The notes under the pieces were generated by a model. It was not told where the DNA came from. It saw only the letters and a program-made list of their open reading frames with translations, and ran no database searches. Below, piece by piece: positions 28,430 through 28,675 of a DNA stretch of 64,000 nt. Position 1 is the first letter of the stretch. The number at the start of each line of letters is the position of its first letter. This DNA comes from Octopus vulgaris. Its lineage: Eukaryota. The DNA lies in contig OX597825.1 of NCBI GenBank assembly GCA_951406725.2, positions 57,598,001 to 57,662,000 of the forward strand, in the 5' to 3' direction. The position numbers and the translations under genes are program-made.

Positions 28430-28675
28430 AAGCCTTGAAAAAAACACCGTTAGATTCACTTCAGCATTTAAATTTAATTTGAGATGCAGCATGAAATTTA
28501 GTCAGTGAACAGGTCGCGGTTTCAAAGCGACGAAAATATTTTGACAAATTTAAATCTTGAAGTGAATCTTTGTGTGTTTTTAAATGGCTTATAAACACCT
28601 TCCATGCTGCAATTGTTTTTGTTTCAGCACACGATATCAAATCAATTCACTTGCTATGCAAGTAGATCTCCGTAA
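28430..28675 (+). repeat. Dispersed pseudo-LTR-like repeat with G3:C8 hammerhead variant (28501-28545) and partial inverted arm
   Basis: GTCA-GTGAACA-G-GTCGC..GCGAC-GAAA-ATAT-TT-TGAC. Same family at 36898-37205 and 59660-59860. Confidence 0.75.

What the first reader, a model, noticed from the sequence alone, without database searches (positions are those of the whole stretch)
28501..28545. Repeated hammerhead variant with a compensatory G3:C8 core swap
Seen: three copies (28501-28545 +, 36965-37009 -, 59666-59710 +) read GUCA-GUGAACA-G-GUCGC-loop-GCGAC/U-GAAA-AUAU-UU-UGAC. Stems I and II pair, the stem II loop varies between copies while its stem is kept, and stem III is a palindrome. Known: the hammerhead core is CUGANGA..GAAA with a tertiary C3-G8 pair. 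Here both positions are swapped together (G3, C8) and there is one extra nucleotide after A9. Inference: this is a multicopy non-canonical ribozyme family, probably in a Penelope-type pseudo-LTR, that CUGANGA motif searches would miss. The UUU cleavage triplet is weak, so activity is uncertain.
Basis: partly seen in the sequence, partly recalled or inferred. Interest (0 to 1): 0.85.

Follow-up and report, generated by a model that had tools for sequence, protein, structure and literature searches.

The report
Swapped-core hammerhead in octopus Penelope retroelement
Thousands of copies of an octopus jumping gene carry a hammerhead-shaped RNA motif in which two paired core letters have traded places (C-G to G-C); the swap is old and shared by the whole family, so the RNA likely still cuts itself weakly, though cutting is untested.

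Summary
The three motifs are real. They are the minimal hammerhead in the terminal repeat (pLTR) of a Penelope-like retroelement. A full pLTR-ORF-pLTR copy exists elsewhere in the genome, and the window copies are its short head-to-head insertions. The G3:C8 core is family-wide: 6,746 exact 17-mer hits. An older, diverged family also has it (27 of 41 hits with the core left free). Homologous sister families keep C3:G8 in nearly the same stems, so this is natural covariation between lineages, probably one old event. The extra base after A9 and U17 are ordinary for published Penelope hammerheads. Natural U3:A8 and laboratory G3:C8 rescue are published. I found no natural G3:C8 in the held papers, but unchecked notes of this scan report it on other DNA. 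Cleavage is untested. Against frequent cutting: 1 of 125 arms starts at the cut site while 53 start about 60 bases upstream, and the youngest intact sister family has lost A9. Verdict: new variant of a known kind.

The parts
28501..28545 (+). Copy 1: type I minimal hammerhead motif, G3 (28505):C8 (28510), extra G after A9, predicted cut 28541|28542
28482..28675 (+). Main arm of insertion 1: short pLTR copy from 60 nt before the cut site to the end of the tail, followed by (TA)n; a G stands in front at 28481
28430..28481 (-). Inverted, 5'-truncated arm of insertion 1 (no hammerhead core), next to (TA)n
36965..37009 (-). Copy 2 hammerhead motif (G3 at 37005), with two G.U pairs in the stems
36891..37023 (-). 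Arm of insertion 2 that holds copy 2, without the tail
37024..37205 (+). Opposite arm of insertion 2: starts inside the core (no stem I 5' strand, no G3), runs to the end of the tail
59666..59710 (+). Copy 3 hammerhead motif (G3 at 59670), different loop II
59658..59861 (+). Insertion 3: single short pLTR copy ending in the tail and (TA)n
35644..37645 (.). About 2.0-kb repeat of another kind that carries insertion 2 as a passenger
   Evidence: 92-97% identity to 7 stored loci

Best explanation
The motif is the minimal hammerhead in the terminal repeat of a high-copy Penelope-like retroelement, in a lineage that carries G3:C8 where its sisters carry C3:G8, and it likely remains a slow self-cleaving RNA that would need a partner copy or the element's protein. 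SHOWN: the element is pLTR - ORF (reverse-transcriptase motifs, C-terminal GIY-YIG) - about 1 kb 3' region - pLTR. The motif is on the ORF strand in both pLTRs. The ORF starts about 55 nt after the cut site, and the window copies are short, ORF-less insertions. INFERRED: RNA starts about 60 nt before the cut site and is capped. Reverse transcription starts at two internal sites, about 88 and 148 nt after the cut site, primed at (TA)n DNA. Copying the uncut 5' end of that RNA gives the short head-to-head insertions. INFERRED: the double change keeps the tertiary 3-8 pair that positions the ribose of residue 8, so occasional cutting would remove the cap from the message or split tandem read-through RNA into units. 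Most RNA that gets copied is likely uncut.
For: Element: ORF then motif on the same strand in L165. GIY-YIG Pfam hit 23.1 bits against a cut-off of 22.6. Full unit L234 with pLTRs 211 of 212 identical. The tail is the ORF's N-terminus. Two 3' ends: 66 of 125 arms at +144..148 and 50 at +84..93, like the two start sites in PMC11167929. 47 of 77 loci have opposite arms. Family-wide swap: G3 in 73 of 76 and C8 in 74 of 81 arms picked by a 3' anchor outside the motif. The same flank with a canonical core gives 20 hits against 5 control, and only 2 of the 20 are family members. Old family with the core left free: G3:C8 in 27 of 41, C3:G8 in 2 of 41, control 0 (counted by eye). The commonest letter at every other core position is canonical (29 loci), while 19 of 87 flank columns differ from the young copy. 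Sisters: C3:G8 in 14 of 14. Pair 3-8 changes on both sides in 11 of 33 rows and one stem II pair in 9. Among 185 arms, shared second alleles occur in 0 of 12 core, 0 of 10 stem II, 0 of 4 stem III and 1 of 14 stem I columns (that one gives a G.U pair), against 5 of 9 in loop II (p=0.0003). C3G/G8C partly restores cutting in a Penelope hammerhead, which cuts only with its protein (PMC11167929).
Against: No cleavage or RNA-end data. Only 1 of 125 arms starts within 2 nt of the cut site; 53 start at -64..-54. The youngest sister family, with open ORFs of about 1,310 aa, has C in place of A9, so a thriving family can carry a non-canonical core. Within the young family the structure is not more conserved than the non-coding 3' flank (1 of 42 against 4 of 50 columns, p=0.37), and the loop II columns are not independent events. 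The swap is probably one event on the tree, so the row counts overstate it. The old family was found by stem patterns, so its stem conservation is built in. The predicted fold lets G3 pair with U17 and lengthen stem I, mirroring the inactive C3-G17 trap (PMC3884650). No intact ORF of this family was seen among the 66 candidates scored; L234 has one stop and two frame changes. Pfam found no reverse-transcriptase domain in this family's ORFs; that domain rests on motifs and named homologs.
Confidence: 0.7

Rival explanations
1. The motif is a catalytically dead or nearly dead relic. The swap and the kept stems serve folding or binding of the element's protein, or simply rode along in successful master copies.
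For: 1 of 125 arms starts at the cut site. The young sister family lacks A9 yet has thousands of hits and open ORFs. Hammerhead mutants do not affect insertion in vitro, and uncut RNA is the main template (PMC11167929). No excess conservation over the 3' flank within the family.
Against: Both changes fall on the one tertiary pair and restore complementarity; a rough chance figure is 1 in 165 for two changes among 11 core positions. All other core positions stay canonical in old and young families while 19 of 87 flank columns changed.
Confidence: 0.24
2. The motif is an efficient ribozyme that sets the RNA ends and makes unit-length circles, which serve as the template for full-length copies.
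For: This model is proposed in PMC4209133. The palindromic stem III suits a dimer, and both pLTRs of L234 carry the motif.
Against: 5' ends of copies cluster about 60 nt upstream of the cut site, not at it. Published minimal Penelope hammerheads cut poorly in vitro. The lowest-energy dimer fold of two copies was not the active dimer.
Confidence: 0.05
3. The repeat is an unrelated SINE or MITE, and the hammerhead likeness is accidental.
For: Many insertions look like inverted repeats, and the window holds no ORF of the element.
Against: Direct linkage to the ORF in most long copies. Homologous sisters have canonical CUGANGA cores in the same stems. The inverted arms have unequal and variable ends.
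Confidence: 0.01

Closest known systems
Minimal type I hammerheads in pLTRs of metazoan Penelope-like elements (Cervera and De la Pena 2014, PMC4209133)
   Same: Place in the pLTR, unpaired base between A9 and stem II, G10.1-C11.1, short stem I, short palindromic stem III, mostly dispersed single or inverted truncated copies, U17 common
   Different: Core pair G3:C8; the 44 alignment rows read show 41 CUGA and 3 UUGA cores and no G3:C8. The extra base is G, where their consensus has H (one row has G).
Natural U3:A8 covariants (Schistosoma Cercyon PLEs, PMC4209133; Perreault et al. 2011, PMC3088659)
   Same: Compensatory change of the 3-8 pair kept in a natural family
   Different: U3:A8 needs two transitions and keeps pyrimidine-3/purine-8; G3:C8 needs two transversions and inverts the pair
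Anolis Poseidon PAc hammerhead and its laboratory C3G/G8C double mutant (Frangieh et al. 2024, PMC11167929)
   Same: Same double change; two internal reverse-transcription start sites giving a tail; AT-rich targets; uncut RNA as the main template
   Different: There it is an engineered mutant in a Penelope/Poseidon element. Here it is the natural state of a lineage with a CX3CxxC linker, and the ORF starts about 55 nt after the cut site rather than inside the motif.
Neptune/Nematis-type endonuclease-bearing PLEs (Craig et al. 2021, PMC8557442)
   Same: C-terminal GIY-YIG, cysteine linker before it, (TA)n targets, inverted 5'-truncated arms, optional tail
   Different: Tail about 60 nt rather than 30-40; clade not fixed by a tree here

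Membership tests
Type I hammerhead ribozyme | Three-way junction with stems I and II | tested here: met
   fold of all three copies; stem II 96% of cells paired, one pair changed on both sides
Type I hammerhead ribozyme | U4 G5 A6, A9, G12 A13 A14, A15.1-U16.1, H17 | tested here: met
Type I hammerhead ribozyme | Literal C3 and G8 (CUGANGA) | tested here: not met
   G3 73 of 76, C8 74 of 81 arms; no Rfam hammerhead hit
Type I hammerhead ribozyme | Watson-Crick complementarity between positions 3 and 8 | tested here: met
   G:C here, C:G in 14 of 14 sister copies
Type I hammerhead ribozyme | Site-specific self-cleavage | not testable with these tools
   only assembled contigs were available
Type I hammerhead ribozyme | Loop I-loop II tertiary contact of fast hammerheads | not tested
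   loop II varies in length and sequence between subfamilies; no search for a contact was made
Minimal hammerhead of Penelope-like elements | Located in the pLTR, on the ORF strand | tested here: met
Minimal hammerhead of Penelope-like elements | Extra base after A9, G10.1-C11.1, short palindromic stem III | tested here: met
   against PMC4209133
Minimal hammerhead of Penelope-like elements | Works as a dimer | tested here: inconclusive
   palindrome present, but the lowest-energy cofold was not the active dimer
Penelope-like element (endonuclease-bearing) | Single ORF with reverse transcriptase and C-terminal GIY-YIG | tested here: met
   GIY-YIG by Pfam in 2 of the 4 ORF pieces of this family scanned; RT by motifs and named homologs, not by Pfam
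Penelope-like element (endonuclease-bearing) | pLTR-ORF-pLTR, inverted truncated arms, optional tail | tested here: met
Neptune/Nematis clades | CX2-5CxxC linker before the endonuclease; (TA)n targets | tested here: met
   (CX3CxxC); definition
Neptune/Nematis clades | Placement in a reverse-transcriptase tree with reference elements | not tested
   no reference sequences held
Non-LTR retrozyme (tandem non-autonomous units) | Head-to-tail tandem short repeats without an ORF (definition recalled; abstract opening) | tested here: not met
   47 of 77 loci are head-to-head pairs, 1 has a direct partial repeat, the rest are single

The most novel reading that the evidence does not exclude
This is a natural, ancient, thousands-of-copies hammerhead lineage with an inverted G3:C8 catalytic pair that still cuts. 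Its job is to decap or split the element's own capped RNA 60 nt from the start, as a self-limiting switch. With its C3:G8 and A9C sisters in the same genome it forms a natural allelic series that makes the open question of what hammerheads do for Penelope elements directly testable, and it implies that genome-wide hammerhead counts miss whole families.
Probability: 0.3. Interest if true: 0.7.

Novelty: new variant of a known kind. Interest (0 to 1): 0.5.

Why it matters
It gives evolutionary support, from a large natural family, that the hammerhead 3-8 tertiary pair can be fully inverted; in the papers I could read this was shown only for laboratory mutants. The published descriptors I read (C3:G8, U3:A8) and Rfam miss the family, so counts of genomic hammerheads, and statements that some Penelope groups lack them, may be too low. 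Three sister lineages with different cores in one genome offer a direct test of whether cleavage matters to these elements.

Tried and rejected
Rfam: no hammerhead model hit. Canonical-core subfamily of this element: rejected; 2 of 20 hits belong to it. Fossil evidence of cutting as 5' ends at the cut site: not found, 1 of 125 arms. A special link between G3 and U17 (avoiding a G3-C17 trap): U17 in 14 of 17 scorable old copies and 7 of 7 young ones, against C17 in 9 of 12 sisters (stem III register ambiguous in several rows). U17 is also in 20 of 44 published C3/U3 rows, so this is only a weak hint. Dimer prediction by cofolding: uninformative. Metagenome scan for related loci: 1 weak 39-residue hit, not used. 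Sequencing runs: no RNA holder listed on record, and only contigs. Laying four runs showed variation in loop II and the flanks and no listed change at positions 3 or 8, but says nothing on expression, strand or ends. One search used a mis-indexed structure and was replaced. One search was translated in the wrong frame and not used. A core-free count for the young family could not be run, so that count rests on the anchor-picked sample. Papers not held and not read: Lunse et al. (PMC5785218), Przybilski and Hammann (PMC1986816), Nelson and Uhlenbeck (PMC2151028). Lunse et al. may list such variants. One supplementary file of PMC4209133 could not be searched, and its figure pages are garbled as text. 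Searches for a natural G3:C8 in print; octopus plus hammerhead. No listing or passage that I read reported one; most listed papers were seen as listing only.

Full report
Observation. The three motifs are present at the stated coordinates. Each has stem I, a core G3 U4 G5 A6 A7 C8 A9, an extra G, a 5-pair stem II, GAAA, a palindromic AAUAUU stem III and U17. Folding gives stems I and II (z -1.7 to -2.2; -3.5 for a young copy). Rfam gives no hammerhead hit (150 of 239 window hits shown).

Copy number. The genome (G000, 2.8 Gb) is octopus: a protein labelled Octopus vulgaris by its source matches it at up to 100%. The 17-mer over stem I, core and stem II has 6,746 exact hits (control 1). A 23-mer anchor about 90 nt downstream has 11,529 (control 0). 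A 25-mer just upstream has 766, so most arms stop short of it.

What carries it. I took the first 100 anchor places, all on contig C1, merged into 77 loci with 125 arms. 47 of the 77 loci have two arms head to head. Counting from the predicted cut site, 66 arms end at +144..148 and 50 at +84..93, mostly at (TA)n. Seven of the 77 loci are passenger copies of one composite, so they are not independent. Long copies have an ORF about 1 kb upstream on the same strand, with a YVDD reverse-transcriptase motif, a CX3CxxC linker and a GIY-YIG domain. Pfam detected GIY-YIG in 2 of 4 pieces and no RT domain in this family. L234 is a whole pLTR-ORF-pLTR unit with pLTRs 211 of 212 identical, one stop and two frame changes. 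The ORF starts about 55 nt after the cut site, and the tail is its N-terminus. ORFs of long copies are mostly 91-98% alike; none was seen intact among 66 candidates scored. These are the hallmarks of an endonuclease-bearing Penelope-like element of Neptune/Nematis type (PMC8557442, passages). The window itself holds no ORF of it.

Is the swap real covariation? In arms picked without the motif, G3 is in 73 of 76 and C8 in 74 of 81. A canonical core in the same flank gives 20 hits against 5 control, and only 2 are family members. An older family has the same first five stem II pairs plus one more. With positions 3, 7 and 8 free it gave 27 hits (control 0), one of them a young copy. With the whole core free it gave 41 hits (control 0): G3:C8 in 27 and C3:G8 in 2, counted by eye. 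In 29 stored loci the commonest letter at every other core position is canonical. These old copies are about 58% identical to a young copy over the 3' flank, and their commonest letter differs from it in 19 of 87 columns; position 7, loop II and stem III length also changed. Sister families (57% protein identity for the young one) have a homologous pLTR with C3:G8 in 14 of 14 copies examined. L338 has the old family's stems with a C3:G8 core, though its GAAA has decayed. On a 33-row alignment, pair 3-8 changes on both sides in 11 rows and a stem II pair in 9, but these are probably single events. A rough chance figure for two core changes landing on 3 and 8 and restoring a pair is 1 in 165.

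Selection within the family. Among 185 arms from 132 loci (partly chosen by upstream or ORF sequence), second alleles at 12% or more occur in 0 of 12 core, 0 of 10 stem II, 0 of 4 stem III, 0 of 2 (extra base, position 17) and 1 of 14 stem I columns (a G.U-keeping change). They occur in 5 of 9 loop II, 7 of 42 upstream, 4 of 50 downstream non-coding and 8 of 87 coding columns. Structure against loop II gives p=0.0003; against the downstream flank p=0.37. Contigs of four public runs, labelled as four organisms, show variation in loop II and no listed change at 3 or 8.

How it likely works. 53 of 125 arms start at -64..-54 and 1 at the cut site. Of 37 copies that stop at -60, 23 have a G in front where the element has C or T. 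In many, that G can come from the inverted arm; among ten single-arm copies without template extension, eight have it (by eye). I infer a capped transcription start at -60. A splice acceptor there is a rival reading, since a pyrimidine tract and AG overlap the site. Reverse transcription from two internal sites, as shown for the anole element (PMC11167929, parts 1-2 of 4), would copy the uncut 5' end into the short insertions. In that paper C3G/G8C partly restores cutting, cutting needs the protein, and uncut RNA is the main template. I put about 0.7 on a slow, conditional ribozyme.

Against activity. There is no direct test and no fossil cut ends. G3 may pair with U17 and lengthen stem I, mirroring the C3-G17 trap (PMC3884650, introduction and passages). 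The youngest sister family, with open ORFs of about 1,310 aa, has C9 in place of A9 in most of the first 100 of 4,974 hits.

Comparison with what is known. PMC4209133 (parts 1-2 of 4, and supplement part 2 of 3) describes the extra base, G10.1-C11.1, the palindromic stem III and a natural U3:A8 family. Its 44 alignment rows that I read have 41 CUGA and 3 UUGA cores, 20 with U17. PMC3088659 (passages and one part) reports natural U3:A8 and no G3:C8 in what I read. PMC8495972 (passages) notes the laboratory rescue. PMC6765202, PMC6155905 and bioRxiv 10.64898/2026.07.22.740005 were seen as passages only. I found no natural G3:C8 in print, but three key papers were not held. The hammerhead numbering scheme is from established knowledge.

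Verdict. It works like, and sits where, a Penelope minimal hammerhead does. It fails the literal C3/G8 test and meets the 3-8 pairing test; cleavage is untested. New variant of a known kind, interest 0.5.

Noticed in passing
L195 (G000:C5:115840523-115845895) and loci L191-L220, L252-L281: Young sister Penelope-like family with open ORFs of about 1,310 aa; its pLTR hammerhead has C in place of the conserved A9, while older kin are canonical.
   Followed up: partly
window 35644-37645: About 2.0-kb repeat with a direct repeat of about 75 nt at both ends that carries insertion 2 as a passenger; 92-97% alike in 7 of 77 sampled loci. Its kind was not determined.
   Followed up: partly
window 28481-28482 and 36 other copies: Short copies stop 60 nt before the cut site, often with a G in front: a possible trace of the RNA cap; a splice acceptor overlaps the same site.
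   Followed up: partly
L054, L078, L079, L119, L170, L022 (C3:G8); L136, L156, L167 (U3:A8): Other minimal hammerhead-like families in the same genome, including U3:A8 cores.
   Followed up: no
L168:2-2365: A different Penelope-like ORF (RVT_1 hit and a sub-threshold GIY-YIG hit) next to a copy of this family.
   Followed up: no
L282:4400-5700: What looks like a mariner-type transposase gene (recalled likeness, not tested) inserted in the 3' region of a copy of this element.
   Followed up: no
window, e.g. 4198-4435, 19754-19947, 49426-50008, 57730-58108; 32079-32434 with 40203-41131: Other dispersed repeat families amid very dense microsatellites.
   Followed up: no
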